Source of the DNA: a virus | Virus record (IMG/VR): IMGVR_UViG_3300047160_006900 | Span: 1 to 64,000 of that record | DNA length: 64,000 nucleotides | Reading direction: 5' to 3' (one strand) | Part shown: positions 7,729 through 48,265 of the stretch, piece by piece | How the letters are laid out: every line of letters begins with the position of its first letter | How positions within the stretch are numbered: position 1 is the first letter of the stretch | Translations under genes and position numbers: made by a program | Notes under the pieces: model-generated | What the model was told of the DNA's origin: nothing | The model's database searches: none | Seen by the model: only the letters and a program-made list of their open reading frames with translations

Positions 7729-7819
7729 GGGCTCCTTGGTCTCTTGGAACGATTCTTGGAGGGCCTGGTCTTGAGGTGGGGGACCAGGCCTTGGAACGCT
7801 TCCTGGTCCCTCACCAGAC

Positions 7820-10142: not shown

Positions 10143-10181
10143 GGTTTCCGTCAGAGACCAACCCCACCGCAGGAGCCCACC

Positions 10182-13442: not shown

Positions 13443-13465
13443 ACATCAGCACAAGAACGAAAGAC

Positions 13466-14740: not shown

Positions 14741-14778
14741 GAGTGCTGCCAGAGACCGTCCAGCCCCAGGAGCACATC

Positions 14779-15327: not shown

Positions 15328-15338
15328 TTGAGTGTCAC

Positions 15339-15377
15339 ACCCCCGTGTCACGCTCGTTGAGTCAGTGACACGGGGGT
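15339..15377 (+). terminator. 13-bp inverted repeat (hairpin) after the 14779 gene
   Basis: ACCCCCGTGTCAC...GTGACACGGGGGT; no U-tract. Confidence 0.5.
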
Positions 15378-15404
15378 ATGGCATGGCATACAGGTCGATA
15401 TGAC

Positions 15405-15433
15405 TTGCACTTGCCGTTGATACCCGGTACTCT
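15405..15433 (+). promoter_or_regulatory. host-type promoter
   Basis: TTGCAC-N17-TACTCT; shares GTTGATACCCGGTA with the 14712 promoter. Confidence 0.75.
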
Positions 15434-15464
15434 GATGGGACGCCCATCAACACAGGAGACCGAC

Positions 15465-16298
15465 ATGGCCGCAAGCATCAAGCAGATGAACTTCATCAAG
15501 AACCTCTTCAAGGAGGCGAGTGACGGGACCGAGAAGCTCGTCGCCGCAGGCCAGGACGAGGTGGTCGCCAGCTTCGCCGCCAAGGTGCAGCCCCTGGAGG
15601 ACATCCTCATCGGAGTGCTGAACGACCGTGAGATCAGCGGCCAGGACGCCCGCCAGGCCATCGATACGCTCATCGAGGTCACCCGTCAGATCAAGGTGGC
15701 GCTGCCCAAGCCCGCTCAGCCGGTCGGCCTGGCGGCGCTCAACGCCGACAAGGTCATCCCCAACCGCTTCGGCAAGAAGTGCTCCTGTGGCACGATGGTG
15801 AACCCCGGTGAGGGCTTCGCCGCCCTGGTGCGTGGCCGCTGGCTCACCGTCTGCCAGGACTGCGCCAACACCGACCCGGCAGCCAAGGCCGCAGCCGACC
15901 AGGCCCTGCTCGACGCCGTGGTGGCCCTCATCAACGAGCGTGACGCCCTGGCCGGGGACGTGTTCAAGCTCCTGGGCACCGACGTCAACGACAACCCCAA
16001 GGCTCACGTCGCCGTGACCAGCGCCACCGGCAACAACGATCTCGACTTCTTCGCCGTGCGCTCCACCGACGGCAAGGTCACGGTCAAGCGTGTCATCGGT
16101 GGTCACAACGACCAGGCCCTCGGCCTCTACCCGCAGGTGGTCGCCCTCAAGGCCATCCTGGCCGAAGACGTGCCCGCTGCGGCCGTGCGGTTCGGTCAGG
16201 AACTCGGCTACTGCGGCTGCTGCGGTCGCCACCTCACCGACCAGGAGTCACGGGCCTACGGCATCGGCCCAGATTGTCGGAGACAATATGGTTTCTGA
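15465..16298 (+). CDS. DUF6011-domain Zn-finger protein
   Basis: C-terminal CGCCGRHLTDQESRAYGIGPDC; second CxC...CxxC; AGGAG RBS. Confidence 0.8.
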   Translation: MAASIKQMNFIKNLFKEASDGTEKLVAAGQDEVVASFAAKVQPLEDILIGVLNDREISGQDARQAIDTLIEVTRQIKVALPKPAQPVGLAALNADKVIPNRFGKKCSCGTMVNPGEGFAALVRGRWLTVCQDCANTDPAAKAAADQALLDAVVALINERDALAGDVFKLLGTDVNDNPKAHVAVTSATGNNDLDFFAVRSTDGKVTVKRVIGGHNDQALGLYPQVVALKAILAEDVPAAAVRFGQELGYCGCCGRHLTDQESRAYGIGPDCRRQYGF

Positions 16299-16299
16299 G

Positions 16300-16479
16300 A
16301 TGAAGCTCTACCTGACCGTTGAGGTGGAGGTGGACGAGACCGTGGTCGATGTCACCCGCCTGCTCATGAACCTGCAAGATCACCCTGCGCTTTCGATGGA
16401 GACGTGGTGGTGTGACTTCGACGGCACCATCGTGGACATCGAGCGGGTCGAGATCGAGAAGCGGGGCGATGGGTTCTAA
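16300..16479 (+). CDS. hypothetical protein
   Basis: MKLYLTVEVEV..., starts 1 nt after the upstream stop. Confidence 0.5.
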   Translation: MKLYLTVEVEVDETVVDVTRLLMNLQDHPALSMETWWCDFDGTIVDIERVEIEKRGDGF

Positions 16480-16690
16480 GCGTCACCAGGGCGTGTTCTG
16501 CAAGCCATGTGCCGTCCATAACCACCAGCACTGCGTCGGGCCGTGTGACTGTGGTCACCGCAAGCACAACCCCGACGTGCGGACGGCTGCGGCCATGCGA
16601 ATGTATGAGCGTCCCGATCTCCGTACGCTGAGCGTCGAGAAGCTGGCCACCTCCTGGCATCAGAAGGACGAGCAGCAGCATGCCGTGTGA
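16469..16690 (+). CDS. small Cys/His-rich protein
   Basis: CKPC...HQHC...CDCGH. Confidence 0.5.
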   Translation: MGSKRHQGVFCKPCAVHNHQHCVGPCDCGHRKHNPDVRTAAAMRMYERPDLRTLSVEKLATSWHQKDEQQHAV

Positions 16691-16910
16691 CGTGACCCTG
16701 GGCGATCACGCCTGCGTCCTGGTGGATGAGCACATCACCCACCAGGACGCCGAGGGCAGTACATGGTCATACCTACGGGACACGCTCCCACCTCCTCCGG
16801 TGGTCGAGCCCCGTGAGCCTGCCCCTGACTGGTACTTCCCCACCATGACCCTGACGGTGTTCGTCGCCCTGGTGGTCGTGTTCGTGGCCTACGTGTGGCA
16901 GCGATCCTGA
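16680..16910 (+). CDS. small membrane protein
   Basis: C-terminal TM segment LTVFVALVVVFVAYVW. Confidence 0.55.
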   Translation: MPCDVTLGDHACVLVDEHITHQDAEGSTWSYLRDTLPPPPVVEPREPAPDWYFPTMTLTVFVALVVVFVAYVWQRS

Positions 16911-17155
16911 GAGACAATCATTTTCGGTCCTTGATTCAGGATGCCCTGTAAGGCCCCTGTATGGCCCTGTAAGCGATTCCACCTCCCTCAGGACACAAGG
17001 ATGCCGTATCCCTGCTCTTCGGGCCTTACGTGGAAACACTACAAATCAGGTCAACATTCAAAAAACCGCGGAAATACTGGCTCGATTGCTAAGAAGTGGG
17101 TTGATACAGGGTATGTGAGTATCAGGCCCTGTTTCAACATTTCCGGCTCTATGAC

Positions 17156-17185
17156 TTGCAGGTGGGGTTGCCACTCTGATACCTT
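17156..17185 (+). promoter_or_regulatory. host-type promoter
   Basis: TTGCAG-N18-TACCTT upstream of the helicase. Confidence 0.7.
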
Positions 17186-17224
17186 GTGTGTGGAGACCAA
17201 ACCCGCGAACCCAGGAGCCCGCAC

Positions 17225-18757
17225 ATGAGCATCTTCGATCAGATCAGCAAGGCCGCAGAGGCCGGAGCCGTCACCGGAGCGCAGGCCTTCAACACGCCTG
17301 CCGGTTTCGACGGCACCCGTACCGAGCCCACTCAGGGCTTCGTCCTCCCCGTGGCTCCCCTCACCAAGACCCTCTACAGCTACCAGGCAGCGGCGGTCGA
17401 GAGCATCCTGACCTACCGTCGGGTGGTGCTGGGCTACCAGCCCGGTCTCGGCAAGACGGCCATCATGCAGGCAGCGGTGGCGGCGGAGGCTCGCCAGGGC
17501 CGCAAGAGCCTGGTGGTCGTGCCCCCCTCCCTCCGCATCAGCCCCTGGGCGCAGGACTTCGCCGCTGACTTCCCCGGCCTGAGCGTGGCCCTGGTGAGCG
17601 GCACCAAGGCGGCGGCGTTCCCCGAGGCCGACGTGGTCATCATCCCCGACAGCATCCTGGCCAAGCGCACCAACGACGTGCTGGCCTGGGGTCCCGACCA
17701 CCTCTTCGTGGACGAGGCCCACCGCTTCAAGAGCCGGGACAGCCAGCGCTCCAAGGCCCTCGTTGCCCTCGCCGACACCCTGGCCCCCGAGGCCATCGTG
17801 GTCACGGCCACCGGCACGCTGGTGTCGAACCGCATCATCGACGTGTACCAGCCCCTGCGGGCCACGGGCAAGGCCAACGCCACCGCCGTGAGCGGGGGCT
17901 ACTCCTGGACCCGGTTCATGGACCGCTGGTGCCTCACCGACACCATCTGGACGGGCCGGGCCACGGTGCGGGTGGCCGTGGGCTGCACCGACCCCCAGGG
18001 CCTGCGTGACACCCTCGTCCACTCCTGCTACCTCTCGGTCCCCCGGGAGGACGTGCTCAGCCTCCCCGAGCGCACCACGGCCGTGCGTGCCCTGGTGCTC
18101 AACGGTGACGCTGCCGAGTACCGGCGGGCGGAGAAGCAGTTCCTGGCCTGGGTGCGTGAGGTCAAGGGCGACGAGGCCTACCGTCGGGCCAGCAAGGCCG
18201 AGGCCATCACCAAGCTGATGGCGCTGTGGGAGATGGACGGCAAGGCCAAGGCCAAGGCCAGCAGCGAGTACGTCACCAGCCTCACCGAGCAGGGTGAGCA
18301 GGTCGTCGTGTTCGCCCACCACAAGAGCGTGATCGAGAAGCTCTACGAGGCCTTCCTCAAGGCCAACCAGCGGGTGGGCGTGATCGTGGGGGGCATGACC
18401 AGCGAAGCCAAGGCCGAGGTGGTCGACTCCTTCCAGGCCGGTCGCCTCGACGTGCTGCTGGGCAACACCGAGGCTGCTGGGACTGGACTCACCCTCCACG
18501 CTGCTCGCCACGTCGTGTTCGTGCAGCTTCCCTGGGCACCAGGGGTGTTCGGTCAGGCGGCCGACCGGGTGTACCGCATCGGTCAGCACCGCCACGTCAC
18601 CACCCACGTCCTGAACATGAGCGAGGGCGTGAGCGAGAACCTGTGGAACGTCCTGGTGGACAAGGCCCACGTTGCCGACGCCGTGAACACCGGTACTCCC
18701 TCCACCATCGACGCCGACAGCGTCGAGGAGGCCGTCCTCCAGAACTACGGGTGGTGA
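17225..18757 (+). CDS. SNF2-family (SF2) helicase/translocase
   Basis: YQ...PGLGKT, VDEAHRFK, TATGT, AAGTGLTL, QAADRVYRIGQ; AGGAG RBS. Confidence 0.92.
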   Translation: MSIFDQISKAAEAGAVTGAQAFNTPAGFDGTRTEPTQGFVLPVAPLTKTLYSYQAAAVESILTYRRVVLGYQPGLGKTAIMQAAVAAEARQGRKSLVVVPPSLRISPWAQDFAADFPGLSVALVSGTKAAAFPEADVVIIPDSILAKRTNDVLAWGPDHLFVDEAHRFKSRDSQRSKALVALADTLAPEAIVVTATGTLVSNRIIDVYQPLRATGKANATAVSGGYSWTRFMDRWCLTDTIWTGRATVRVAVGCTDPQGLRDTLVHSCYLSVPREDVLSLPERTTAVRALVLNGDAAEYRRAEKQFLAWVREVKGDEAYRRASKAEAITKLMALWEMDGKAKAKASSEYVTSLTEQGEQVVVFAHHKSVIEKLYEAFLKANQRVGVIVGGMTSEAKAEVVDSFQAGRLDVLLGNTEAAGTGLTLHAARHVVFVQLPWAPGVFGQAADRVYRIGQHRHVTTHVLNMSEGVSENLWNVLVDKAHVADAVNTGTPSTIDADSVEEAVLQNYGW

Positions 18758-18999
18758 GCCCGATGCCCATGGCGGTCTCACCCAACGTCACCCCCGCCCC
18801 CCGTGGCTGCCGAGACAAGGTCAAGTACCCCTCGGCAGCAGCGGCGGGGGACGGGCTCATCCGACTGACCGAGCGCATCAACAGCGGTCAGCTTCTCCCG
18901 GCCAGCTACCACTGGTCGGCCGGTCCCCTGGCCGTGTACGAGTGCAGCTTCTGTGGCTACTGGCACATCGGGCACACCGCCCCGACAAGGAGACCATGA
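18754..18999 (+). CDS. Zn-finger-like actinophage protein
   Basis: C..KVKY...VYECSFCGYWHIGH; GTGA overlap. Confidence 0.6.
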   Translation: MSPMPMAVSPNVTPAPRGCRDKVKYPSAAAAGDGLIRLTERINSGQLLPASYHWSAGPLAVYECSFCGYWHIGHTAPTRRP

Positions 19000-19154
19000 T
19001 GCCCGACAGCTACAGCGAGTGGAAGGCCGATGTCCAACACGGCCGCACCGTGCTGGGCTTCATCGACTGGCTGTATGCACGGCGGCCGCCTGAGATACGC
19101 AGCCGGTGGTGGTGGAGGATCCTTCCCAAGCCCGACGTCGAGCGTCATACTTGA
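18996..19154 (+). CDS. hypothetical protein
   Basis: AAGGAG RBS, ATGA overlap. Confidence 0.5.
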   Translation: MMPDSYSEWKADVQHGRTVLGFIDWLYARRPPEIRSRWWWRILPKPDVERHT

Positions 19155-19157
19155 CCC

Positions 19158-27562: not shown

Positions 27563-27757
27563 GTGATAGCAATGGAACCGCTAGAGCGCATGATCGAAGC
27601 GGAAGTTGGCGTAGTGTTGGAGCCGTCTGCGCTCCCGGAGTGGTGGACCACGTACATCTCAGCGCTCGACGGGACTCCCCGAGAGTTGTATGACCGAGGA
27701 GATTGGGAGAAGGTATTCCTCTACGCCCAGACCTATTCCTCGGTGGACTTCTCATGA
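27563..27757 (+). CDS. hypothetical protein
   Basis: Downstream of a TGCGATACT motif; ATGA coupling to the next gene. Confidence 0.45.
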   Translation: MIAMEPLERMIEAEVGVVLEPSALPEWWTTYISALDGTPRELYDRGDWEKVFLYAQTYSSVDFS

Positions 27758-27963
27758 GCGCTCACCAGAATCTCAATCCGGATCAGTTCCAGACCTACCG
27801 GTACGAGGTTGAGTACGCTCCCACTCATGAGGACATGTCGGCGGGGCGGTCCAAGAAGACCTACGTGTCGGTGATGGAGAAGAACGAGACCGAAGCCAAC
27901 CTCACCGCTGCCCAGATGGTGTGGCGACATGGTATCCCCACGGCCACGAAGAGGATCTCATGA
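27754..27963 (+). CDS. small protein starting MSAHQNLNPDQF
   Basis: ATGA coupling on both sides. Confidence 0.65.
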   Translation: MSAHQNLNPDQFQTYRYEVEYAPTHEDMSAGRSKKTYVSVMEKNETEANLTAAQMVWRHGIPTATKRIS

Positions 27964-28403
27964 GTGCTGCCCGCCACATCCACCCCGATCAGCTTCGGAT
28001 GTTCATGCCCGCCAAGGAACTGATCGGGTTACCGCCCAATCGGGCGGACTTCAGCATGTGGGAGGGTAAGGATGCTCGGCGTGAAGGGATAGAGCCCTCT
28101 AAGGAGAACTTCTGGGCGTCTCGGGTGAAGGAATCCGATGAAGGGCATCGGACTGGATTGCGGGAATCGATTGGGGCAGAGGGCGTGGCCCAGCCGGTCG
28201 TCATCCATCACAGCGGTGAACACCCTGAAGGAGTCATGCTCGCCCAGGGGCATCATCGGGTGGCGTCGGCAACGGTTGCCAATCCGGAGCAGTTGGTCCC
28301 GGTGAAGCACTACGGACCAGATTATCAGTTTAAAGAAGCGGTTCATGAACGTGAGTACGTGAAGTACGGAGGCCTTGCTTCCTTGAGATCGGAGCCGTTC
28401 TGA
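27960..28403 (+). CDS. ParB/Srx-like domain protein (paralog of 26330)
   Basis: LRESIGAEGVAQPV...LAQGHHRVASA...VPV; starts MSAARHIHPDQLRMF. Confidence 0.7.
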   Translation: MSAARHIHPDQLRMFMPAKELIGLPPNRADFSMWEGKDARREGIEPSKENFWASRVKESDEGHRTGLRESIGAEGVAQPVVIHHSGEHPEGVMLAQGHHRVASATVANPEQLVPVKHYGPDYQFKEAVHEREYVKYGGLASLRSEPF

Positions 28404-29266
28404 TGAGCACCGAATACGGGGGCCGCACATTCGACCGCATCGAGCGGATCGATCCCCGGAGCTACAACTACCTCGTCATACAGCATCCGGACGTGGCCCG
28501 AGAGGTTGGCCCCACGGTGGTCTATGTCTCCCCCGAGGACAAGATCATCCTGGCCCAGATCGCTGCGTTGGATGCTCGGGTGACGGCGTTGGAGCAGGCT
28601 TCACCGACTCCGGCTCCCGCCCCGGCTCCAGTTCCCACTCCAACGCCATCGCCTCCCGCAGCTACGGTCTACACCTGCGGGCAGGTCATGGACCAGGGCA
28701 AGACCGGCATGTGCGTGGGCTACGGCTGGGCGGGCTACCTGATGACCTCTCCCAGCCCGGAGACCATCACCGTCGGTAGCGGGGGAGACGACGAAACCTC
28801 AACCGCCGACACGATCTACGACCAGGCCAGGACAGAGGACGGGTCGACGCCAGTGGATGACCCTCAGGGTGGGGCATCGACGCTAGGCGGGGCGAGGGCC
28901 TGTACCAGGCTGGGGTTCATCAAGTCGTATTCCTGGGCGCTCAACGCTTCCCAGGTGGTAGCGGGGCTGCAGTCGATCGGTCCGTGTGTGGTGGGCATGC
29001 CCTGGCGGTCCACCATGATGGAGCCCGACAACTTCGGTGTGCTCGACGTGGGCGACAAGAGCCAGGACGTCGGCGGGCATGAGTTCTTTCTCTGGGGGTA
29101 CTTCCCCAAGGGAGCCCCTGGGAACCCCTCCGCTACCGAGGATATGTTGGCGATGCGGAACTCTTGGGGCACAGGGTGGGGGAAGTACGGGAACGGCTAC
29201 ATCCCCGCTGCGGGACTGGCAGCGCTGATCGTTGACGGCGGGGACTGCACTTTTCCAGTGAAGTGA
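28403..29266 (+). CDS. papain-like C1 cysteine peptidase
   Basis: DQGKTGMCVG (oxyanion Gln, catalytic Cys), GGHEF (His), RNSWGTGWG (Asn). Confidence 0.85.
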   Translation: MSTEYGGRTFDRIERIDPRSYNYLVIQHPDVAREVGPTVVYVSPEDKIILAQIAALDARVTALEQASPTPAPAPAPVPTPTPSPPAATVYTCGQVMDQGKTGMCVGYGWAGYLMTSPSPETITVGSGGDDETSTADTIYDQARTEDGSTPVDDPQGGASTLGGARACTRLGFIKSYSWALNASQVVAGLQSIGPCVVGMPWRSTMMEPDNFGVLDVGDKSQDVGGHEFFLWGYFPKGAPGNPSATEDMLAMRNSWGTGWGKYGNGYIPAAGLAALIVDGGDCTFPVK

Positions 29267-29294
29267 CCACAAGATGTAGGACTTGCTACCCCGT

Positions 29295-29489
29295 TTAACT
29301 GGCTGATACTTCTAACGGGGTGAGTCCTTCCAGCTTGAGCCCCTGATAACGATGCAGTGTGGCCCGTGCTCGATTGATGACGGGCGTGTCGGTGGGCAGG
29401 AGTCGGAGAAGCTCATGGAGCGAGTTCTCCATGGCGTCTCCCACGTCCTCCAGGTTTCGGACGTATGCGACGATGTCGGGGTCGGTCAT
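29295..29489 (-). CDS. hypothetical protein
   Basis: GAGGGG RBS, MTDPDIVAYVRNL. Confidence 0.5.
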   Translation of the reverse strand: MTDPDIVAYVRNLEDVGDAMENSLHELLRLLPTDTPVINRARATLHRYQGLKLEGLTPLEVSAS

Positions 29490-29568
29490 GGGGTTTCCCC
29501 TCACGGTGGATAAGTGTCCCGAATGATACAGGGCTTTGGTATCCACCGATAGTAGGTTTGAAACCCTT

Positions 29569-30468
29569 TTACAGAGCCTTCACCCCCGCCGTGACTCCCG
29601 CAGCAACCGCCTGGGCCATGGCGTTGTAGTCGATGCTCCCGTCTCCACCGCCCCCGCCACTCGGCACGGACTTGAGGTTCGCCACTTCGGCGTCGCTGAC
29701 CTGCTTGCTGGGGACGCCGCCCCAGGCTCCGGTGAGGTCCGAAGGCACGCCATAGGGAGGCTGTGGCGTCCCCACGAAGTGGCTGGAGATGCGTCCGCCC
29801 TCCACCACGAACCAGCCCTCGTTGATGTTCACTCCGATGTACATGTCGTCAGTCCTTTTCGTTACGGGAGCGGGGGCGGAGGCCGTCCACCAGGAGGGTT
29901 TTAGAACGAGGTTTTGGTCCGTGCCCGGTATGGGCGTGCCGATGAGTTGGATGAGATCTGCCCCCAGTTGTTGCCAGTATTGAATGTTTCGGGGATGGTT
30001 GTCGGGATAGCCCAGGGGGTTCCAGTCGACGACCCCCCAGAACTTCTGCAGCTTGCCTCCCAGGTGCATGCCCTGGTTGATGGCATCGCTGCTGCCGTAC
30101 TGGCCGAAAGCGAGTTCTCGGGTCTGGTCGGCCCAGCCCTGGAGGTAGGGCTGGGTGTTGCGTCCGTGCAGGCTGCCGTTGTTGAGGTCACAGGCCACGA
30201 CGTAGGAGAACTCCCCGGCCGGGATTCTGCGCTCATGGGCCGCACAGTCGGACTTGCCGTTGGCATAGTTCTGATCGGGCGTTCCCGCTACCGCTCGGTC
30301 CTGGCTGGATTCAAAGATCCAGGCGTGGTGGAGACGCTCGGTCGAGAACAGGGCCACGTAGGCATCGCTGGGGCGGGCGCTCCCTGAGTAGACCAGCACT
30401 CCCTCGCCGTCGTTGGCGAGAACATCAGAGGGGCTGGCCTGGCCCTCTTGGTCGTAGGCGTAGCTCAC
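29569..30468 (-). CDS. putative endolysin, DUF1906/GH25-like glycoside hydrolase
   Basis: WIFESSQDRA...YVVACD...YLQGW...GQYGS pattern; GTGA-coupled to the holin-like gene. Confidence 0.6.
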   Translation of the reverse strand: MSYAYDQEGQASPSDVLANDGEGVLVYSGSARPSDAYVALFSTERLHHAWIFESSQDRAVAGTPDQNYANGKSDCAAHERRIPAGEFSYVVACDLNNGSLHGRNTQPYLQGWADQTRELAFGQYGSSDAINQGMHLGGKLQKFWGVVDWNPLGYPDNHPRNIQYWQQLGADLIQLIGTPIPGTDQNLVLKPSWWTASAPAPVTKRTDDMYIGVNINEGWFVVEGGRISSHFVGTPQPPYGVPSDLTGAWGGVPSKQVSDAEVANLKSVPSGGGGGDGSIDYNAMAQAVAAGVTAGVKAL

Positions 30469-30872
30469 TTCCACTCCGGAGGGGTGGTGTCGTCGTCAGT
30501 AGTGGTCTCGGCGGGCAGTTGGGTCGGGGTCGGCGGCGGGGTTGTCGTCGCTCGTTCCGGTGGCTGGGTGTAGTTGTGGCCGACGTTCTTCACGGCGGTG
30601 TAGCCCTCCCAGATACCAGCGGCGATACCGGCGAGCAGGATACCCACCACTAGCTGCGACCAGAAGTTCAGGGAGTCGAGCGATCGATTGAGCACGACTT
30701 CATCGCTGGAGAAGTTGGACGCCGAGACCAACAGCACGGCGGCGATGCCGACGACGAGACAGGTGATCGCCACGATGCGTTGGGTGTTGGTCCCCAGGGC
30801 GATGGAGCGGGCCAGTGCGACCAGGCCGGTCAACGTGAGGCCGAGGACGAGAGCGGAACTCAGATCGAACAT
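30465..30872 (-). CDS. putative holin (3 TM)
   Basis: Three hydrophobic segments, polar tail, adjacent to the lysin; GGGGAG RBS. Confidence 0.65.
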   Translation of the reverse strand: MFDLSSALVLGLTLTGLVALARSIALGTNTQRIVAITCLVVGIAAVLLVSASNFSSDEVVLNRSLDSLNFWSQLVVGILLAGIAAGIWEGYTAVKNVGHNYTQPPERATTTPPPTPTQLPAETTTDDDTTPPEWK

Positions 30873-30932
30873 TTACTCCCCCTAAGATACGGAAGGTTTG
30901 CAGTTTCCTCCCATCGAAGGTACGATGGGCGC

Positions 30933-31199
30933 ATGGGACTTTTCAAGAGACTTCAGGATCCAGGCGTACGTGACCGGACTCCCCTAGAGCATGGCCTACG
31001 GAACTCCCTTCTGTGGGGATTCGCCGTGTCGGAGGTGATGGAGGGCTCCCTCGATGAGAAGGTGTTGGCCTTCCTGGTGCCGTACGTCATCGGGGGTGCT
31101 GCCTACATCGGGGCTACTGAGGGGGCCAGGACGTATCAAGAAGAAGTTGATTCTCCAGCAGGAGGATCTCTTTACGTTCTTCCACCGGTTTCGGACTGA
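30933..31199 (+). CDS. small membrane protein, leaderless
   Basis: TTGCAG(30898)-N17-TACGAT-6 nt-ATG. Confidence 0.55.
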   Translation: MGLFKRLQDPGVRDRTPLEHGLRNSLLWGFAVSEVMEGSLDEKVLAFLVPYVIGGAAYIGATEGARTYQEEVDSPAGGSLYVLPPVSD

Positions 31200-31407
31200 G
31201 TTCGGCGTTCATCTCCGCCACCTGAGTCCCCATCGAGATGAAGAGGCCTCCGATTCGGAGGCACTCCTCGGGAGTGAAATCCAGTTTGACCTGCCCCACC
31301 TCGGCGTCCTTCGGGGTGACGTGGAATGCCAGCACGATGGAGGGAAGCCATGTCTCCTCGTCGGCTGAGACGAAGAGAATGACCTCTTGTTCGGAGTCTT
31401 CGGTCAT
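31114..31407 (-). CDS. acidic hypothetical protein
   Basis: TATGCT-6 nt-ATG; convergent overlap with the previous gene. Confidence 0.55.
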   Translation of the reverse strand: MTEDSEQEVILFVSADEETWLPSIVLAFHVTPKDAEVGQVKLDFTPEECLRIGGLFISMGTQVAEMNAELSPKPVEERKEILLLENQLLLDTSWPPQ

Positions 31408-31540
31408 GCCGGGAGCATAACCCTTGTAGGTAAAGGGTTCTGGGACCCTATTCGCCATAGTGGCTAGAGACCCTGCTAGCGTGCCCCTCTGAACCCGCCC
31501 CTGGCGGGTTTTGTCCTATCCGCCATCAGGGAGCAGCCCT

Positions 31541-32107
31541 TTGCGACGTCGTGTGAGTTTCCTCATCGTCATATCCGTTCTCGCCATCACCATGCTGTTG
31601 GTTCTCCCGACGGGGTCAGCGCAAGCGCAGTCGTCCACGGAGAAGCAAGCTGGTCTGGCCCTCATGGTGGGTCGGGCCGCTGGTGACGCTCAGGTCATGA
31701 TGACCAAAGCCCAATACGGCTTGGTCGTCTACCTGGCAGCCACCAACGACGCCAACCTGACCACGTACGTCAACGCAGTCGAGCAAGCTGATGCCGAGGC
31801 AGCCCTTCAAAACTCCCAGGCTCAGCCAACTCAGCAGTATTCTGCCCCATCCAGTGGCGGAGCTTCTGGTGACTGCTTCGACGGCTCCCCCATCCCGGCC
31901 TGGATCGTGAATCGGGAGAGTGGGGGCGACCCCAATGCGGTCAATCCCTCCTCCGGTGCCTACGGGTGCTATCAGGAACTCCCTGGGCACTTCAACGCTG
32001 GGGCGGTGTGTGGAGGGTTGTCCATGTACAGCGTCGCTGACCAGAAGACCTGTGCTCAGCGGCTGATCGACGCTGCCGGGGGCTCGTTGGCCCCCTGGGC
32101 GGAGTAG
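31541..32107 (+). CDS. secreted Rpf/SLT-like lytic transglycosylase
   Basis: Signal peptide RRRVSFLIVISVL...AQA; IVNRESGGDPNAVNPSSGAYGCYQ. Confidence 0.8.
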   Translation: MRRRVSFLIVISVLAITMLLVLPTGSAQAQSSTEKQAGLALMVGRAAGDAQVMMTKAQYGLVVYLAATNDANLTTYVNAVEQADAEAALQNSQAQPTQQYSAPSSGGASGDCFDGSPIPAWIVNRESGGDPNAVNPSSGAYGCYQELPGHFNAGAVCGGLSMYSVADQKTCAQRLIDAAGGSLAPWAE

Positions 32108-32113
32108 CCAGGT

Positions 32114-32140
32114 GCCCCGGTCCTCCCCAGGGACCGGGGC
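32114..32140 (+). terminator. hairpin after the transglycosylase gene
   Basis: GCCCCGGTCC...GGACCGGGGC. Confidence 0.55.
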
Positions 32141-32159
32141 CTTGGTGTATCCTATTGAC

Positions 32160-32498
32160 ATGCCGAGAGACGACACCTACCGCTTGCGAGAGGATCCCCG
32201 CTGTGGCCCGTGGATCGTGACGGCGGCGTCGAGTCGGGTGGCCCGGTTTCGTTGGGATTACAACAACGACGTGATGCAGGTCCAGTGGCGGAACCAGAAG
32301 AACATGGGATACCTGTATGACTGCGGGTATGAGGAGTTTCGGTCCATGTTGCGGATCAACTCCAAGGGGAAGCAGATCAACAACCCGCTCAACGGCTATA
32401 CCTACCGGCCGATGGACCCCATCGAGTACGGGGCTCCGGTGGAACGGGACAACGCCCCGCTGTCTCGGGCCAGGGGTGTCACGGACATCCAGACTTGA
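32160..32498 (+). CDS. KTSC-like domain protein
   Basis: SSRVARFRWD...MQVQWR...YLY...SKGKQIN. Confidence 0.65.
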   Translation: MPRDDTYRLREDPRCGPWIVTAASSRVARFRWDYNNDVMQVQWRNQKNMGYLYDCGYEEFRSMLRINSKGKQINNPLNGYTYRPMDPIEYGAPVERDNAPLSRARGVTDIQT

Positions 32499-32749
32499 AA
32501 GAGTTCTGGATTCAGCGGCCCTGCTTCTACTGGGGCTATGACGATATCGATGAGGGCAAGCGGCTCAGTATGACCTGGATGGTTCATACCGAGCCGCCCT
32601 TCTATCACGGGAGGGCTCTGCGGCTGCGGGTCCAGGATCGGGCCTATTGGTTCGGCCTCTACCGCAAGGCCAAGAAGCCGTTCGTGCGGGAGACCGAGAT
32701 CCATCCGGAGGAGATCCGCTCATGGGTATACGACTCAAGAAGCCGCTGA
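32495..32749 (+). CDS. hypothetical protein
   Basis: TTGA coupling; TEPPFYHGRALRLR. Confidence 0.55.
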   Translation: MKEFWIQRPCFYWGYDDIDEGKRLSMTWMVHTEPPFYHGRALRLRVQDRAYWFGLYRKAKKPFVRETEIHPEEIRSWVYDSRSR

Positions 32750-32967
32750 AGACCAACTCGGCGGTCCCGCCCCCGACCAAGCTGAAGTCCCTCTCGGGGG
32801 ACGACCTCTACCTCTACGTGGAGTCGGGGTTGATGGCCTGCCAGCAGCGGCTGGCCGAGTTCCGCCAGGGTGACTTTTTGACCAAGCCGATTCGGCTGGA
32901 GATGTTGGTGAGCGAGTTCGACGCCGTGACCGTCGGTCTCCAGGAGATGCAGGCTCGGACTGTCTAG
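32722..32967 (+). CDS. helical hypothetical protein
   Basis: GGAGG RBS before ATG 32722. Confidence 0.55.
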   Translation: MGIRLKKPLKTNSAVPPPTKLKSLSGDDLYLYVESGLMACQQRLAEFRQGDFLTKPIRLEMLVSEFDAVTVGLQEMQARTV

Positions 32968-33016
32968 CGCTCCGAATACTTGCACTTCTGGCTAGTGGTC
33001 GGTAAACTGGTTGTTC

Positions 33017-33301
33017 ATGGAACAACTATCGTTACCCCTCATTACGGAGCAGGCATCGTCGTACGAAATCGTGCTGCTGCGGAACGACATCCCCATCCTG
33101 ACCCTGCACGCCGATGCCCTCGCAGAGGCCCAGAGCAAGCGACGGGACCTAGTCGATCTGCTCCAACGTGACCCTCGGAACCGCACGGTCTGGGAGGACA
33201 ACCCCCGTCCGACCGGGTGGTGGGGCCTCAGGCCCACGCCGCCGCTTGCTGCTGCGGTGTACAACATCCGCATCGAGTCCGTCAGGATCGGAGCATCGTG
33301 A
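33017..33301 (+). CDS. hypothetical protein beginning MEQLSLPL
   Basis: TTGCAC(32980)-N17-TAAACT-8 nt-ATG. Confidence 0.55.
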   Translation: MEQLSLPLITEQASSYEIVLLRNDIPILTLHADALAEAQSKRRDLVDLLQRDPRNRTVWEDNPRPTGWWGLRPTPPLAAAVYNIRIESVRIGAS

Positions 33302-33304
33302 GTC

Positions 33305-33721
33305 ATGAGCCACACCGAGATCCACATCAACGAGCCGGGGGCTTCCATCGAGGAGCGGGTTGCGGCTCTGGAGAAGCAGGTCGAATTCCTGTCCAAGGAC
33401 CGTCCTGGCCGTAAGATGAAGCCCAACATCACGTCCCAGCCCGGGGTCTGCGGTATCGACCCGGCTCGGGACTCCTCGATCTGTCCCGACGCCAGCATCT
33501 ACCGGTACCAGAACGGCTGTCAGGGTGACAAGTGCGTCCAGATCAACCGGGACTACTACTCCGACTACCGGGCCAAGCGACGGCAGAACACCAAGCCGAC
33601 GGCGGAGGCCGTAGTGGAGGATCTTCCCGCCTCGGTCAGTAACGGGGAGGCCAGCCATGAGCCCCCGTCGATGACGCCGCCCCCGCCAGCGCCGTTCGGT
33701 CTCGACATCGACGCTTCGTAA
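33305..33721 (+). CDS. Cys-containing, possibly DNA-binding protein
   Basis: C...C...YQNGCQGDKC...NRDYY, like actinophage Y..GCRC motifs. Confidence 0.6.
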   Translation: MSHTEIHINEPGASIEERVAALEKQVEFLSKDRPGRKMKPNITSQPGVCGIDPARDSSICPDASIYRYQNGCQGDKCVQINRDYYSDYRAKRRQNTKPTAEAVVEDLPASVSNGEASHEPPSMTPPPPAPFGLDIDAS

Positions 33722-33849
33722 CGTGGATTTCAGCGGCCATACACCAGATCCTACGGAGTATGACATCTACGTGGCGTGGTATGAGAAGCTGGTAGTCGAC
33801 GCTCTCTGGAAAGAGCGATACGGTTACGATCTCGTCACCGGAGGTATCC

Positions 33850-34098
33850 GTGGAGCCGACATCGACGCAGCCTGACGATGACACCGAGACTCTTCTATTG
33901 ATCTTGGAGTGGATCACGGAGCAGCGGAAGACCGATCAAGAGCAGTGGGAGGCCATCCATCGCCTCAAGCGGGTTCTCCGGCGTGTGCTGGAGAGGGTTA
34001 AGACCCTAGAGGAGGAGGTAGCAGCGCTACAGCCACCCACACCGCATCCTGCGGTAGCGGGTACAGTCAACTTCGGCACACCAGTGAAGAGGAGTTAG
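33850..34098 (+). CDS. coiled-coil protein ending AVAGTVNFGTPVKRS
   Basis: GGAGG RBS. Confidence 0.6.
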   Translation: MEPTSTQPDDDTETLLLILEWITEQRKTDQEQWEAIHRLKRVLRRVLERVKTLEEEVAALQPPTPHPAVAGTVNFGTPVKRS

Positions 34099-34102
34099 GG
34101 CA

Positions 34103-34429
34103 ATGGCAGACGCAGTACTCAAGGACGACGAGGTATTCCCGACCGTGACCCTGTCGTGGACAGACGACCAGGGCAGTCCCACCACCTCCCCGACCACCAT
34201 CGCCGCCTCATCGTCCGACGAGGCCACGGTGACGGTGACCGAGAACTCCGACGGCAGCGGCAGCTATGCCGTCTCCTCGGTCGGTCCCGTCTCGACCGCC
34301 GACGTGACGGTCTCCTGGCTCGGGACGAACGACGACGGCAGCACGGTGACGGTCTCGGCGTTGGTCGCCGTGGTCTCCAGCGAGGCCGTGGGCGGTTCGG
34401 TGAACTTCGGAGAGCCCATCAAGCGCTGA
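34103..34429 (+). CDS. Ig-like beta-rich protein ending AVGGSVNFGEPIKR
   Basis: AGGAG RBS; Ser/Thr/Val-rich strands, SSDEATVTV. Confidence 0.7.
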   Translation: MADAVLKDDEVFPTVTLSWTDDQGSPTTSPTTIAASSSDEATVTVTENSDGSGSYAVSSVGPVSTADVTVSWLGTNDDGSTVTVSALVAVVSSEAVGGSVNFGEPIKR

Positions 34430-34430
34430 G

Positions 34431-34459
34431 TTGCACTCCCCGCAGGAGGGGAGTACAAT
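34431..34459 (+). promoter_or_regulatory. near-consensus promoter that is itself an inverted repeat
   Basis: TTGCAC-N17-TACAAT; TTGCACTCCCC/GGGGAGTACAA. Confidence 0.75.
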
Positions 34460-34465
34460 GAAAGC

Positions 34466-34553
34466 ATTCCGGTTCCTGGGTTCCTGGATTGGTCTCTGTG
34501 TGCTAGGAGCCGGAGTAAAGAGCCCCTCGGTCCACCGATCGGGGGGCTTCTTT
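34466..34553 (+). ncRNA. candidate antisense small RNA (about 88 nt)
   Basis: 14-bp stem with G-U pairs, 23-nt loop, terminator hairpin plus TTCTTT; complementary to early-gene leaders. Confidence 0.6.
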
Positions 34554-34586
34554 ATGCCATAGTGGCGGGAGGATTCGATTAAAGGA

Positions 34587-35171
34587 GTGGGTCCAATGCC
34601 CGAATCACATTACGAACCGGCTCCAGCACTACAAGATCCAGCCCCAGACCTACCCCCTGACCCCACTCCTCCTCCTCCTCCGGACCCAACTCCTCCTCCG
34701 GACCCTGCTCCCGAACCTCCCCCTCCGCCACCGGACCCAGCCCCAGAACCCGATCCGACTCCGCCTCCGGACCCTGCCCCAGCCCCAGAACCCCCTCCTG
34801 AGCCCGCCCCTGAGCCTCCTCCGGCCCCCTCTGGGGACGACTCCGGCGACGAGCCGAAGTACATCGAGCCGGTACGGGACGACGTGGTCGATGTTCCTGA
34901 GGCTCCCCCGGCTCCGCTCGTACCTCCGGGGGACTCGGGTGGAATCGCCCCTGAGGATCAGCCCAATCCGGAACTCCCGGAACTGGAGCCCCAAGAACCC
35001 ATCTACGAGGGCGAGGGCGTTCCGGCCGATGAGCAGCAGCAGCAATTGGCCGAGGATGAGGCTCAGTTCCAGGAGACGTACGACCAGCAGCGGGATGAGC
35101 ACGAACAGGCCTGGCAGGACGAGCAGGCCCAGATTCTGCAGGAGCGCGTGAAGCGGCTGGAGGGTCAGTAG
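34587..35171 (+). CDS. Pro/Asp/Glu-rich repetitive protein
   Basis: PPPDPAPEP repeats, acidic C-terminal helix; AAGGAG RBS (start may be ATG 34596). Confidence 0.65.
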   Translation: MGPMPESHYEPAPALQDPAPDLPPDPTPPPPPDPTPPPDPAPEPPPPPPDPAPEPDPTPPPDPAPAPEPPPEPAPEPPPAPSGDDSGDEPKYIEPVRDDVVDVPEAPPAPLVPPGDSGGIAPEDQPNPELPELEPQEPIYEGEGVPADEQQQQLAEDEAQFQETYDQQRDEHEQAWQDEQAQILQERVKRLEGQ

Positions 35172-35196
35172 ATCGGGTATGCCATAGTTATCGGTA

Positions 35197-46571: not shown

Positions 46572-48265
46572 TGCCAGTCATTCCCGGCCCGGGTCACGGC
46601 GAGGTCACAGTCTCTCCGATCCTGTATGGCCCCAAGGGGGCCACGGGGGCCTCCGGCCCCAAGGGAGCAACGGGGGCTCCTGGGCCGAACGTCGTAGGAG
46701 CTACGGGTCCTCCGGGTGCTTCGGGGCCGGTAGGACCGACCGGTCCTGCCGGTGGGAACACTGGTCCGTCGGGGCCGTCCGGACCTGTTGGCCCGACGGG
46801 TATTCCTGGAGAAACCGGGGTCACGGGATCAACTGGTGATCCTGGTGGTCCGACGGGTGCTACTGGAATCAAGGGTTCCACGGGTGTTACTGGGTCGACC
46901 GGGGTTACGGGATCGACTGGTGTTACTGGAGATATAGGTATCCAAGGAGCGACCGGTCCTGGTGGTGGTGCTCAGGGGAATACCGGTGTCCAGGGAGCGA
47001 CCGGTATCCAGGGATCGACGGGCGTCACTGGTAATACCGGTGTCACGGGGTCTACAGGCGCTCAAGGGGCCACTGGGGTTACGGGCTCTACAGGGGTTAC
47101 CGGATCGACGGGTCCTGTTGGGCCGACCGGTATCACCGGATCCACCGGGGCCAAGGGAGATTCCGGGAATACCGGGGTCACGGGGGCGATGGGATCGGTA
47201 GGACCGACCGGAGCAACTGGCCCGAAGGGTGATACCGGGACCACCGGAGATCTTGGCCCTACCGGGGCCACGGGTCCCACTGGAAATATCGGGGCTACGG
47301 GGAGTGGAGCGACCGGAACCACGGGAGCTACGGGGGTCACCGGTTCACAGGGTAATACCGGAGTTCAGGGTTCGACCGGAGTGGGGAATACCGGACCGCT
47401 GGGAAATACCGGCGTGGTTGGTCCAGCCGGAGCTACGGGAGTCACTGGTGGTACGGGTGTTGGGAGCACTGGTATCACCGGATCCACGGGTCCGACCGGG
47501 GCTACTGGTCCTACGGGATTCACGGGTCCCCAGGGATTCAACGGGGCAACCGGTATCGGTGCTACCGGTGTGACCGGAGCCACCGGTCCCCAGGGGACGC
47601 AGGGCTCGATTGGCCCGACCGGTCCCCAAGGAAACACCGGGGTTCCCGGTGCTACGGGGGTAGTGGGATCTACGGGAACCACGGGATCCGTTGGACCAGC
47701 CGGTGCTACGGGAAGCGTCGGCGCTCTTGGTCCGACTGGTCCCACCGGAGTCACTGGGTCGACCGGAACTATTGGTCCGACCGGAACGGGAGCCTCTGGA
47801 CCCACCGGAGCAACGGGTCCATCAGGTGCTACCGGAGTAGTCGGGGCGACGGGGACCGGTTCTCAGGGAGCTACGGGGCCAGTGTCCAGCTACGTGGCGC
47901 AGATCGACGTCACCGACCCGAATGCGTCCTTGTCCCTCCAGGTGGGGAACGGCAAGGCCTACTACCGGATCAACTCGCTGATCAACGGGCTGAAGCTCAC
48001 TGCGGTGGCCATGCACGTCACCACTGTTTCCACCTCGGGGCTCCCGTCGTTCCAGATCTACAACGTCACGCAATCCCGCAACATGCTCACCACGGTGGTG
48101 TCGTGTGACGCCACCGAGAAGGACTCGTCCACTGCTGCCACGGCTGCGGTGATTGATACGGCGTCCTCTCACGATGTGGTATCTACGGGGGACGAGCTTC
48201 GGCTGGACTGCACCGTGGCCGGGACCGGGACCAAGGGCGTGATCATCGATTTGACGTTCGGCTGA
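46571..48265 (+). CDS. collagen-like fibre protein 1 (Gly-X-Thr)
   Basis: Long [12 protein letters not shown] triplet run plus a globular C-terminal domain. Confidence 0.9.

What the first reader, a model, noticed from the sequence alone, without database searches (positions are those of the whole stretch)
34431..34553. Candidate trans-acting sRNA antisense to the shared leader/RBS of early genes
Seen: a near-consensus promoter (TTGCAC-N17-TACAAT) is followed by a 14-bp stem (34466-34479 / 34503-34516, with G-U pairs) and a terminator-like hairpin. The reverse complement of the 5' arm plus loop is CACACAGAGACCAATCCAGGAACCCAGGAACC. It matches leaders 17-27 kb away: AAA+ (10152 CAGAGACCAA...CAGGAGCC), the 14779 gene (CAGAGACCGTCCAG..CCCAGGAGC), the helicase (17193 GAGACCAA...GAACCCAGGAGC), the 7728 minus gene (AGAGACCAAGGAGCC), DUF6011 (CACAGGAGACC) and, more weakly, the ParB-like gene (ACCAGTCC...CACACAGGAGC). 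Several mismatches are A-to-G changes that keep G-U pairing. Inference: one phage sRNA occludes the Shine-Dalgarno of a whole early regulon, as a shut-off, lysis/latency or superinfection switch.
Basis: partly seen in the sequence, partly recalled or inferred. Interest (0 to 1): 0.9.

Follow-up and report, generated by a model that had tools for sequence, protein, structure and literature searches.

The report
Phage small RNA mirroring early leaders
Just before the DNA-packaging genes of an uncultured soil phage lies a small, conserved RNA gene whose core is the mirror image of a tag at the very start of the phage's early messages, so it probably controls those messages by base pairing, although the RNA itself has not yet been observed.

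Summary
The structure is real. Window 34431-34555 holds a promoter of the phage's own type, a 12-14 bp hairpin and a strong terminator hairpin (fold z -4.09).

It is a conserved unit. 16 of 42 related contigs have the same promoter-hairpin-terminator unit before the terminase gene, with an invariant 10-12 nt core. A covariance model built without the window finds it (E 3.7e-5). The 34-aa ORF is not conserved.

The complementarity to early leaders is real for the AAA+ and helicase leaders. It is weak for two others and at background for the DUF6011 and ParB-like leaders.

Relatives use different leader tags, and their units carry the matching antisense. This covariation is the strongest evidence.

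The conserved pairing is with the 5' end of the early mRNAs, not the Shine-Dalgarno. Hybridisation-energy tests were not significant. No RNA data exist.

Best reading: a trans-acting antisense RNA of the P1 c4 / P4 CI kind (confidence 0.55). A DNA operator in inverted orientation is the main rival.

Earlier notes of this scan report the same kind of terminase-adjacent anti-leader RNA in other, unrelated phages. Those notes are unchecked.

The parts
34431..34459 (+). Promoter of the unit: -35-like hexamer 34431-34436, 17-nt spacer, -10-like hexamer 34454-34459
   Evidence: Sequence read. Same type as the early promoters of this genome. The -10 position is conserved in the alignment of relatives. 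Not listed by the E. coli-type scan.
34466..34555 (+). Predicted transcript of about 90 nt. The start is inferred from the -10 hexamer and the end from the terminator.
   Evidence: Two-hairpin fold at -49.6 to -49.8 kcal/mol, z -4.09. A covariance model built from 8 relatives matches 34462-34555 over its full length, 28.3 bits, E 3.7e-5.
34468..34514 (+). Hairpin 1: 12-bp stem (34468-34479 with 34503-34514) and a 23-nt loop
   Evidence: Minimum-energy and centroid folds. Relatives have other stem sequences around the same core. 5 of 9 outer-stem pairs show a change on both sides.
34485..34496 (+). Core of the loop. It is invariant in the window and nine aligned relatives (10 consecutive positions plus one more).
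   Evidence: Invariant columns of alignment A1. Mean probability of being unpaired is 0.54, against 0.20 for the rest of the RNA.
34489..34498 (+). Exact antisense of the 10-nt box of the AAA+ leader
   Evidence: The only other exact copy of that word in the window, on the opposite strand. Own-leader run of 10 nt; shuffle P 0.005.
34515..34555 (+). Terminator-like hairpin with a U-rich 3' side
   Evidence: Fold. Every relative with the unit has a strong hairpin at this place. Not listed by the simple scan.
10152..10161 (+). Leader box of the AAA+ ATPase gene (10182-11501). It starts 10 nt after the -10 hexamer of the promoter at 10114.
17192..17219 (+). Leader of the helicase gene (17225-18757): box plus a second complementary stretch next to the Shine-Dalgarno. 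This is the best match to the antisense of the unit in the whole genome.
14750..14757 (+). Box variant (8 nt) in the leader of the gene at 14779-15327, after the promoter at 14712
   Evidence: Alignment score 22, not significant alone.
7736..7745 (-). Box (9 of 10 positions) directly before the Shine-Dalgarno of the minus-strand gene 7150-7725
   Evidence: Score 19, not significant alone.

Best explanation
Window 34431-34555 is a stand-alone gene for a non-coding RNA of about 90 nt. It has its own host-type promoter, one hairpin that presents a conserved core, and an intrinsic terminator. It lies at the boundary between the non-structural genes and the packaging and structural genes.

The core, and in this phage part of the 5' arm, is complementary to a short box at the predicted 5' end of several early, DNA-metabolism mRNAs encoded 17-27 kb away.

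The most likely mechanism is pairing in trans with those leaders, which lowers their translation or stability and so adjusts early expression as the RNA accumulates.

SHOWN: the structure, its conservation, the absence of a conserved ORF, the complementarity, and the joint change of box and antisense between lineages.

INFERRED: that the RNA is made, that the pairing happens as RNA with RNA, and the sign and purpose of the regulation.
For: (1) STRUCTURE. The + strand fold has z -4.09 and the opposite strand z -1.87.

(2) CONSERVATION.
- 16 of the 42 loci found through the terminase have the core motif at the same place (15 exact copies plus one variant with one changed base, L015). That gives 9 distinct sequences besides the window.
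- The core is invariant across the window and nine aligned relatives, while blastn sees no similarity in the 156-bp spacer as a whole.
- A covariance model trained on 8 relatives without the window finds the window's unit as its only hit there, E 3.7e-5.

(3) RNA-LEVEL SELECTION.
- 88.2% of cells are paired, against 81.6% in shuffles (1 of 500 shuffles as high).
- 7 pairs have changes on both sides, against 3.7 expected (5 of 500).
- Slid controls give 42-66% paired.
- Caveat: the alignment was fitted to the model and has only 9 sequences.

(4) NOT A PROTEIN GENE. The frame through the core has no start codon upstream of the core in 5 of 9 relatives.

(5) COMPLEMENTARITY IN THE WINDOW. See.

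(6) COVARIATION OF THE UNIT WITH THE LEADER OF THE HOMOLOGOUS AAA+ GENE.
- The longest exact complementary runs with the unit's own leader are 10, 11, 12 and 9 nt in four lineages. Shuffle P values are 0.005, below 0.001, 0.002 and 0.019.
- Runs with other lineages' leaders are 5-8 nt, except window against G1, which share one box type.

(7) COPY COUNTS WITHIN SINGLE CONTIGS.
- G1: the 9-nt box is exact 5 times against 0.32 expected. Three copies sit just after early promoters in sense, one is the antisense copy in the unit, and one lies inside an ORF.
- G4 (complete, 107 kb): a different 9-nt box is exact 5 times against 1.35 expected. Four are sense leader copies and one is the antisense copy in the unit.
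- G008: a third 9-nt box has 5 sense copies within 50 nt of gene starts and 1 antisense copy in the unit before the terminase. The reversed-pattern control gives 0 and 0.
- G009 (complete, 118 kb): 2 sense copies and 1 antisense copy with one mismatch in the unit.

(8) ORIENTATION. All 21 promoter- or start-proximal copies counted are in the sense of their gene. In all 6 units the copy is antisense to the unit's own transcription.

(9) OWN PROMOTER FOR THE TERMINASE. In the window and relatives the terminase start codon has its own -10-like hexamer 6-8 nt upstream. The unit is therefore not needed as the terminase leader.
Against: - No expression data: no RNA run holding this phage was listed.
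- Hybridisation energies are not better than shuffles. For the loop against 105 leaders the minimum is -29.4 against a shuffle mean of -27.6 (P 0.20), and the top four give P 0.25.
- With the whole hairpin, G+C-rich coding repeats outscore the leaders.
- The antisense stretch is not always in a loop. In L012 and L036 it lies partly in a stem or at the foot of the terminator, with probability unpaired 0.43 and 0.28.
- The G009 match is weak (7 contiguous nt).
- The 12-14 nt match of the L012 unit is to leaders on other contigs (L055, L056). Whether they are the same phage is unproven.
- The unit is dispensable. At least L018, L019, L021, L023, L025, L026, L040 and G010 have the terminase gene directly after the upstream gene.
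- In G1 the helicase and DUF6011-gene leaders lack the box, so the target set is not conserved gene by gene.
- A double-stranded DNA site read by a protein would give the same covariation.
- In the window the Pro-rich gene at 34596-35171 has no visible promoter after the terminator, so some read-through must occur there.
Confidence: 0.55

Rival explanations
1. The box is a double-stranded DNA operator for a phage-encoded regulator. It sits at the start sites of early promoters, where binding would repress them. One further copy, in the opposite orientation, sits just downstream of the promoter of the unit. The apparent RNA complementarity is then only the same DNA site read on the other strand, and it changes between lineages because the protein's specificity changes.
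For: - The boxes begin 4-11 nt after the -10 hexamers of early promoters, a classical operator position.
- Covariation between sites is equally expected for a co-evolving protein and its sites.
- Hybridisation energies are not significant.
- In L012 and L036 the antisense stretch is not exposed in the predicted RNA.
- G1 has one further copy inside an ORF in the loop's sense.
Against: - It does not explain why the odd copy always lies inside a short promoter-to-terminator unit.
- It does not explain why, in 10 distinct sequences, that copy sits in the top of a hairpin whose stem co-varies.
- Orientation is strictly sense in 21 of 21 leader copies and antisense in 6 of 6 units.
- In G008 two boxes abut the start codon and one lies in the first codons, not at promoters.
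- The boxes are asymmetric and short (9-12 nt).
- No candidate binding protein was identified.
Confidence: 0.17
2. The unit is a cis-acting leader and attenuator of late transcription: a constitutive promoter followed by a terminator, as at lambda PR'-tR'. Read-through into the downstream genes would be controlled either by an antiterminator that recognises the hairpin or by pairing of abundant early leaders with the nascent RNA.
For: - The architecture, and the position at the head of the packaging and structural genes.
- In the window the Pro-rich gene 34596-35171 follows the terminator with a Shine-Dalgarno but no visible promoter.
- In L012 and L036 the antisense stretch overlaps the foot of the terminator stem, so pairing could weaken termination.
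Against: - The terminase start codons have their own -10-like hexamer 6-8 nt upstream, in the window and in relatives. Late transcription therefore need not pass the terminator.
- In the window and in the 9 close relatives the antisense core lies in hairpin 1, which is separate from the terminator.
- No antiterminator gene was identified.
- Relatives without the unit still have the same gene order.
Confidence: 0.13
3. This is an ordinary operon-end terminator next to an ordinary promoter. The resemblance to early leaders arises by chance or from shared composition and Shine-Dalgarno-like words.
For: - Energy tests are not significant.
- In genomes of about 40 kb, many 9-11 nt words of a 70-nt leader have an antisense copy somewhere by chance.
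Against: - The match is to a pre-specified 90-nt unit, not to any place in the genome. Shuffle P is 0.005 to 0.019 in each of four lineages.
- The helicase leader exceeds all 500 shuffles.
- The multi-copy leader word is the one with the antisense copy in the unit in G1, G4 and G008.
- The invariant core lies in an otherwise unalignable spacer.
Confidence: 0.07
4. The functional product is the 34-residue hydrophobic peptide of the ORF 34458-34562, which has a good Shine-Dalgarno 9 nt upstream.
For: The ORF and its Shine-Dalgarno exist in the window.
Against: - Its start codon overlaps the -10 hexamer, so the unit's own transcript would lack it.
- In the frame that reads the conserved core, 5 of 9 relatives (L002, L004, L013, L014, L031) have no start codon upstream of the core, and the open stretches differ in length and sequence.
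- The ORF runs through the terminator hairpin.
Confidence: 0.03

Closest known systems
c4 antisense RNA of phages P1 and P7 (immI region; Rfam RF01695)
   Same: A small phage RNA whose exposed stretches are complementary to short repeated sites in the leader of phage genes that it represses. It acts away from its own template strand. Passages of the review PMC12197685 describe complementary sequences positioned within RNA loops.
   Different: - No sequence or structure match: Rfam shows no hit at gathering scores, and RF01695 is absent even up to E 10.
- As I recall it, c4 is processed out of the same transcript that carries its targets, and it serves prophage immunity. Here the unit has its own promoter and terminator.
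- The targets lie 17-27 kb away in several operons.
- I looked for no integrase, so the lifestyle of the phage is unknown.
CI RNA of satellite phage P4
   Same: A small RNA complementary to repeated sequences near the 5' end of the early transcript. It controls early expression by pairing.
   Different: As I recall it, CI RNA causes premature transcription termination within its own operon and is an immunity factor. It is an unrelated sequence in a different genomic setting. None of this was tested here.
Start-associated sequences (SAS) of Cluster K mycobacteriophages (Pope et al. 2011, PMC3203893; passages read)
   Same: - Actinobacteriophages with an asymmetric short repeat at the starts of non-structural genes, nearly always in one orientation.
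- The function is unknown.
- The authors leave open a phage- or host-encoded RNA or protein partner.
- They note a single copy in the opposite orientation in four genomes.
   Different: - SAS is a 13-bp motif that includes the Shine-Dalgarno, 3-7 bp before the start codon. Here the box usually lies at the 5' end of the leader, 12-35 nt before the start codon, and has other sequences.
- The paper describes no small RNA gene.
- Its supplementary figures with the opposite-strand sites could not be seen because supplements are closed.
Lambda PR'-tR' short transcript (6S RNA) and its Shiga-phage derivative sRNA (recalled; only a reference-list entry seen)
   Same: A promoter followed after about 100-200 nt by a terminator at the head of the late genes. 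In Shiga-toxin phages the terminated RNA is reported to act as a trans-acting sRNA.
   Different: There the late genes depend on antitermination at that terminator. Here the terminase gene appears to have its own promoter. No Q-like gene is known here. The targets here are the phage's own early leaders.
Highly expressed intergenic non-coding RNAs of actinobacteriophages (Rhodococcus phage WC1 and mycobacteriophages; PMC10986025, passages read)
   Same: Phages of actinobacteria produce abundant RNAs from intergenic regions, including one at the left end near the terminase genes. Their function is unknown.
   Different: In the passages I read, no sequence relation to these RNAs was tested and no complementarity to early leaders is reported.

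Membership tests
c4 antisense RNA (Rfam RF01695) | Match to the family's covariance model | tested here: not met
   No Rfam family reaches gathering score in the window. With permissive filters on 34380-34620, six weak chance-level hits appear (E 0.16 to 9) and RF01695 is not among them.
c4 antisense RNA (Rfam RF01695) | Exposed stretches complementary to repeated sites in leaders of the regulated phage genes | tested here: met
   for the window. for relatives.
c4 antisense RNA (Rfam RF01695) | Encoded in and processed from the same operon as its targets; immunity function in a prophage (recalled definition) | tested here: not met
   The unit has its own promoter and terminator, and the targets are 17-27 kb away in other operons. 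Immunity function is not testable here.
Lambda-type late promoter with terminated leader (PR'-tR') | Promoter followed by an intrinsic terminator directly upstream of the late genes | tested here: met
Lambda-type late promoter with terminated leader (PR'-tR') | Late genes have no promoter of their own and depend on read-through | tested here: inconclusive
   A -10-like hexamer lies 6-8 nt before the terminase start codon in the window and relatives, which argues against dependence. The window's Pro-rich gene has no visible promoter. No transcript data.
Lambda-type late promoter with terminated leader (PR'-tR') | A Q-like antiterminator gene | not tested
   No search for one was made.
Start-associated sequences of Cluster K mycobacteriophages | Asymmetric repeat at starts of non-structural genes, in one orientation, with a rare opposite copy | tested here: met
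   compared with passages of PMC3203893.
Start-associated sequences of Cluster K mycobacteriophages | The 13-bp SAS consensus including the Shine-Dalgarno, 3-7 bp before the start codon | tested here: not met
   The boxes here have other sequences and mostly lie at the 5' end of the leader. Only two G008 boxes abut the start codon.
   Window 34462-34555: 28.3 bits, E 3.7e-5 in 327 kb. The more distant units of L012, L015, L036 and L139 are not found at E up to 1. The G009 unit is found only at E 0.43.

The most novel reading that the evidence does not exclude
The unit is one member of a widespread, undescribed class of phage 'anti-leader' RNAs. In this class a small RNA gene beside the terminase gene co-evolves with a tag at the 5' end or start of the phage's non-structural mRNAs and acts as an RNA-based timer between early and late expression. 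This would explain start-associated repeats such as the SAS of Cluster K mycobacteriophages, and it would recur in unrelated phage groups, as the earlier unchecked notes of this scan suggest.
Probability: 0.35. Interest if true: 0.85.

Novelty: new variant of a known kind. Interest (0 to 1): 0.7.

Why it matters
Temporal control in large lytic phages of actinobacteria is poorly understood. Repeated motifs at the starts of non-structural genes, such as the SAS of Cluster K phages, have had no known partner since 2011.

A small RNA that co-varies with such motifs would supply that partner and a simple mechanism: one RNA tuning several early operons at once.

It would also give annotators a rule for finding these genes: a gene-free promoter-to-terminator unit near the terminase gene that carries the only antisense copy of a multi-copy leader word. 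The box and anti-box pairs would be orthogonal natural parts for RNA-based control in high-G+C hosts.

If the DNA-operator rival is right instead, the same sites would mark a phage regulator that acts on early promoters and on the early/late boundary.

Tried and rejected
EXPRESSION. The run search listed 23 DNA holders, all soil metagenomes, and no RNA holder. Laying contigs of four runs on 14650-34640 gave short, low-depth pieces identical to the window and no variant in the unit. Neither result bears on expression.

ENERGY TESTS. RNAduplex of the whole hairpin against 40-nt windows of both strands ranks the leaders about 6th and 25th, behind G+C-rich repeats. Loop against 105 leaders with 300 shuffles gives P 0.20 and 0.25. 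I did not run an accessibility-aware program of the IntaRNA type.

MINUS-STRAND READING. The antisense of the unit looks like a full leader with a Shine-Dalgarno and a start codon for the ORF 34264-34467 on the minus strand. I rejected this for three reasons. I saw no promoter upstream on that strand. The ORF overlaps the + strand gene 34103-34429, which shares a C-terminal motif with its neighbour. The core keeps the same orientation in all relatives.

INVERTED RELIC OF A LEADER. Rejected for the same reason.

SMALL ORF. Rejected.

BLASTN. The spacer finds nothing in 42 related loci or in the phage collection. The relation appeared only on reading the upstream regions.

LINKING THE L012 UNIT TO THE L055/L056 LEADERS.
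- No overlap of the contigs.
- No early cassette in the L012 record.
- Two viral scans found only the same contigs plus one chance match, L060.
- None of the metagenome scan's hits that could be compared over 100 nt had the unit's flanks.

OTHER NEGATIVE RESULTS.
- A long-query alignment scan of G4 found nothing above background. The targeted leader test came later.
- G010 has no unit, and no multi-copy leader word there has an antisense copy longer than 8 nt.
- The cultured Streptomyces phage LuckySocke (terminase 45% identical) shows no such + strand unit before its terminase gene. No cultured carrier is therefore known.
- Literature searches and passages of PMC12197685, PMC10986025 and PMC3203893 showed no description of such an RNA. 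This covers only those searches of the held library, and supplements are closed.
Full report
WHAT THE WINDOW IS

The window is the first 64 kb of a 117,405-bp virus record with direct terminal repeats. It has 62% G+C. It is only distantly related to cultured phages: the best terminase match is 46% identity, to Streptomyces phage BRock and its relatives. The contigs that hold near-identical DNA come from soil metagenomes.

The region 7-19 kb carries DNA-metabolism genes: an AAA_5 ATPase, a DEAD/SNF2-type helicase, and DUF6551 and DUF6011 proteins. These genes lie behind a repeated promoter type. The terminase gene starts at 35197 and structural genes follow.

THE OBSERVATION

- The + strand of 34460-34560 folds into two hairpins at -49.8 kcal/mol, z -4.09, and no shuffle of 200 folds as well. 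The opposite strand gives z -1.87.
- The stem is 12 bp in the minimum-energy fold.
- By E. coli rules the promoter is not near consensus (8 of 12 positions; not listed). It is, however, the best copy of the phage's own promoter type.
- No tRNA gene or Rfam family covers the region.

IS THE COMPLEMENTARITY MORE THAN CHANCE?

By sequence, yes.

- The 10-nt word in the AAA+ leader has exactly one other exact copy in the window, antisense in the loop.
- Local alignment of the antisense of 34471-34502 to 105 leaders gives 32 for the helicase leader. That is above all 500 dinucleotide shuffles (maximum 29).
- The top-four sum is 95, against a shuffle maximum of 91.
- The helicase leader is the best non-self match in the window and in the whole genome.
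- The leaders of the genes at 14779 and 7725 score 22 and 19, near the shuffle mean of the maximum (19.9).
- The DUF6011 and ParB-like leaders are at background.

By hybridisation energy, no.

- RNAduplex of the loop against the 105 leaders is not better than shuffles (P 0.20; top four P 0.25).
- With the whole hairpin, G+C-rich coding repeats score better than the leaders.

RNAduplex allows large internal loops and ignores accessibility, so its background in a 62% G+C genome is high.

RELATIVES

The terminase protein brought in 42 related loci.

- Blastn finds no relative of the 156-bp spacer.
- The three small genes around the unit (33850, 34103, 34596) have no relatives in those loci. The gene at 33305 lies directly before the terminase gene in 36 of 42 loci. 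In the window, therefore, 33722-35196 is a variable insert.
- Reading the upstream regions showed that 16 of the 42 loci have the same arrangement at the same place: a promoter with a conserved -10 position, a hairpin, and a strong terminator. This gives 9 distinct sequences.
- The core at window 34485-34494 plus 34496 is invariant in the alignment of the window with nine relatives.
- A covariance model built from 8 relatives without the window finds window 34462-34555 over its full length at 28.3 bits, E 3.7e-5. It is the only hit in the window.
- On the model-fitted alignment of 9 sequences, 88.2% of cells pair, against 81.6% in shuffles (1 of 500 as high). Seven of 17 pairs have changes on both sides (5 of 500). 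Slid controls drop to 42-66%. The fit to the model and the small number of sequences limit this test.
- In the window and in all nine distinct relatives the core lies at the top of hairpin 1, around a weak 3-bp inner helix. The stems differ in sequence.
- The frame that reads the core has no start codon upstream of it in 5 of 9 relatives. The 34-residue ORF is therefore not the conserved product.

COVARIATION WITH THE LEADERS

This is the strongest evidence.

G1 (the record behind L009). The 9-nt word complementary to the core is exact five times against 0.32 expected. Three copies lie 4-9 nt after early promoters, in sense, including both members of the divergent pair at the AAA+ gene. One is the antisense copy in the unit. 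One lies inside a whiB-like ORF.

G4 (complete genome, 107 kb). The unit has another sequence, and the AAA+ leader begins with another 9-nt word. That word is exact five times against 1.35 expected: four sense copies in leaders and one antisense copy in the unit.

G008. A third 9-nt word has five sense copies, all within 50 nt of gene starts, and one antisense copy 160 nt before the terminase match. The reversed pattern gives none.

G009 (complete genome, 118 kb). The relation is weaker: two sense copies and an antisense copy with one mismatch.

The lineage of L055/L056. Four near-identical early promoter-leader cassettes begin with an 11-nt word. Its 12-14 nt antisense is found in the unit of L012. 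That unit is on a different contig, and I could not show that both belong to one phage.

Matched against mismatched lineages. For four lineages, the longest exact run between a unit and the leader of its own AAA+ gene is 10, 11, 12 and 9 nt, with shuffle P of 0.005, below 0.001, 0.002 and 0.019. Runs to other lineages' leaders are 5-8 nt. The exception is window against G1, which share one box type.

Chance background. One search shows that a 9-11 nt antisense copy somewhere in a 40-kb genome is common by chance. The weight of the evidence therefore lies in two points: the copy is in the pre-specified 90-nt unit, and it is the multi-copy leader word that has it.

WHERE THE PAIRING FALLS

In every lineage the box begins a few nucleotides after the -10 hexamer, at the predicted 5' end of the mRNA. 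It does not fall on the Shine-Dalgarno.

- Only the window's helicase leader has a second complementary stretch next to the Shine-Dalgarno. That stretch would pair with the 5' arm of the hairpin, which must first open.
- In G008, two boxes abut the start codon and one lies in the first codons.

Pairing at the 5' end could act on translation of short leaders or on mRNA decay. I cannot tell which.

WHY NOT SIMPLY A LATE LEADER?

In the relatives the terminator is followed within 30-60 nt by a -10-like hexamer 6-8 nt before the terminase start codon. This is the layout of leaderless genes in actinobacteria. The same hexamer precedes the window's terminase start at 35197. The unit therefore looks like an independent gene.

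Against that, the window's Pro-rich gene (34596-35171) has no visible promoter and would need read-through. In L012 and L036 the antisense stretch overlaps the foot of the terminator. I keep the attenuator reading as a rival at 0.13.

THE DNA-OPERATOR RIVAL

This rival explains the covariation equally well and fits the position of the boxes at start sites. It does not explain three things:

- the strict orientation (21 of 21 leader copies in sense, 6 of 6 unit copies antisense);
- the promoter-to-terminator frame around the odd copy;
- the co-varying hairpin that presents it.

I give it 0.17.

WHAT IS KNOWN

- The nearest described systems are the antisense immunity RNAs c4 of P1/P7 (passages of PMC12197685) and CI of P4 (recalled). 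The unit is not a member of the c4 family, and it differs in having its own promoter and distant, multiple targets.
- The start-associated sequences of Cluster K mycobacteriophages are the nearest described target-side feature. The authors note one copy in the opposite orientation in four genomes and leave an RNA or protein partner open (PMC3203893, passages).
- Abundant intergenic RNAs of unknown function are reported for actinobacteriophages, one of them near the terminase end (PMC10986025, passages).
- Two full-text searches found no description of an anti-leader RNA of this kind.
- Earlier notes of this scan describe the same kind of unit in several unrelated phage groups. They are unchecked AI notes and I use them only as a pointer.

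VERDICT

This is a real, conserved, non-coding promoter-to-terminator unit whose core is antisense to a co-varying tag on early leaders. It is most likely a trans-acting antisense RNA (0.55). The Shine-Dalgarno mechanism and the size of the regulon are overstated in the finding, and expression is unproven. Novelty: a new variant of a known kind. Interest: 0.7.

Noticed in passing
window 34436-34453: The 17-nt spacer between the two promoter hexamers of the unit is itself a perfect palindrome with 6-nt arms. It could be an operator on the unit's promoter or the 3' stem of the upstream operon. It is specific to the window and absent from the aligned relatives.
   Followed up: no
window 35180-35199, and before the terminase start in L001-L017, L031, L036: A -10-like hexamer lies 6-8 nt before the terminase start codon. 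This suggests a leaderless terminase mRNA with its own promoter.
   Followed up: partly
window 33722-35196: Three small genes plus the unit replace a spacer of about 300 nt in relatives. The proteins at 33850, 34103 and 34596 have no relatives in the 42 loci. The first two end in the same short C-terminal motif (also noted earlier in the scan). The third is a Pro-rich protein with an acidic tail and no Pfam match.
   Followed up: no
L140 about 1330-1420 (G009): By eye, a tRNA-like gene appears to lie between the unit's terminator and the terminase gene in this complete 118-kb relative (sequence printed). It was not run through the tRNA finder.
   Followed up: no
G1 (reverse of L049+L050), script coordinates 13362-13640: A whiB-like ORF holds one copy of the loop core in the loop's own sense. 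It may be a chance copy, since 0.32 exact copies are expected per genome. The whiB-like gene points to an actinobacterial host.
   Followed up: no
L057 about 7400-12300 (G007), also in L059: Four near-identical cassettes of about 85 nt (promoter, leader, Shine-Dalgarno) head four early genes, two of them divergent. The two records are 99.99% identical over 10.3 kb although they come from different samples.
   Followed up: partly
G1 script coordinates about 17800 and 20550: The helicase and DUF6011-gene leaders of G1 and G2 share a second 5' motif that differs from the box and is not complementary to the unit. These phages therefore have at least two classes of early or middle leaders.
   Followed up: no
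window 46600-48000, 53900-55100, 57600-58900: Long collagen-like triplet repeats dominate the repeat search and give the strongest spurious RNA duplexes with any G+C-rich query.
   Followed up: no
Not examined here.
   Followed up: no
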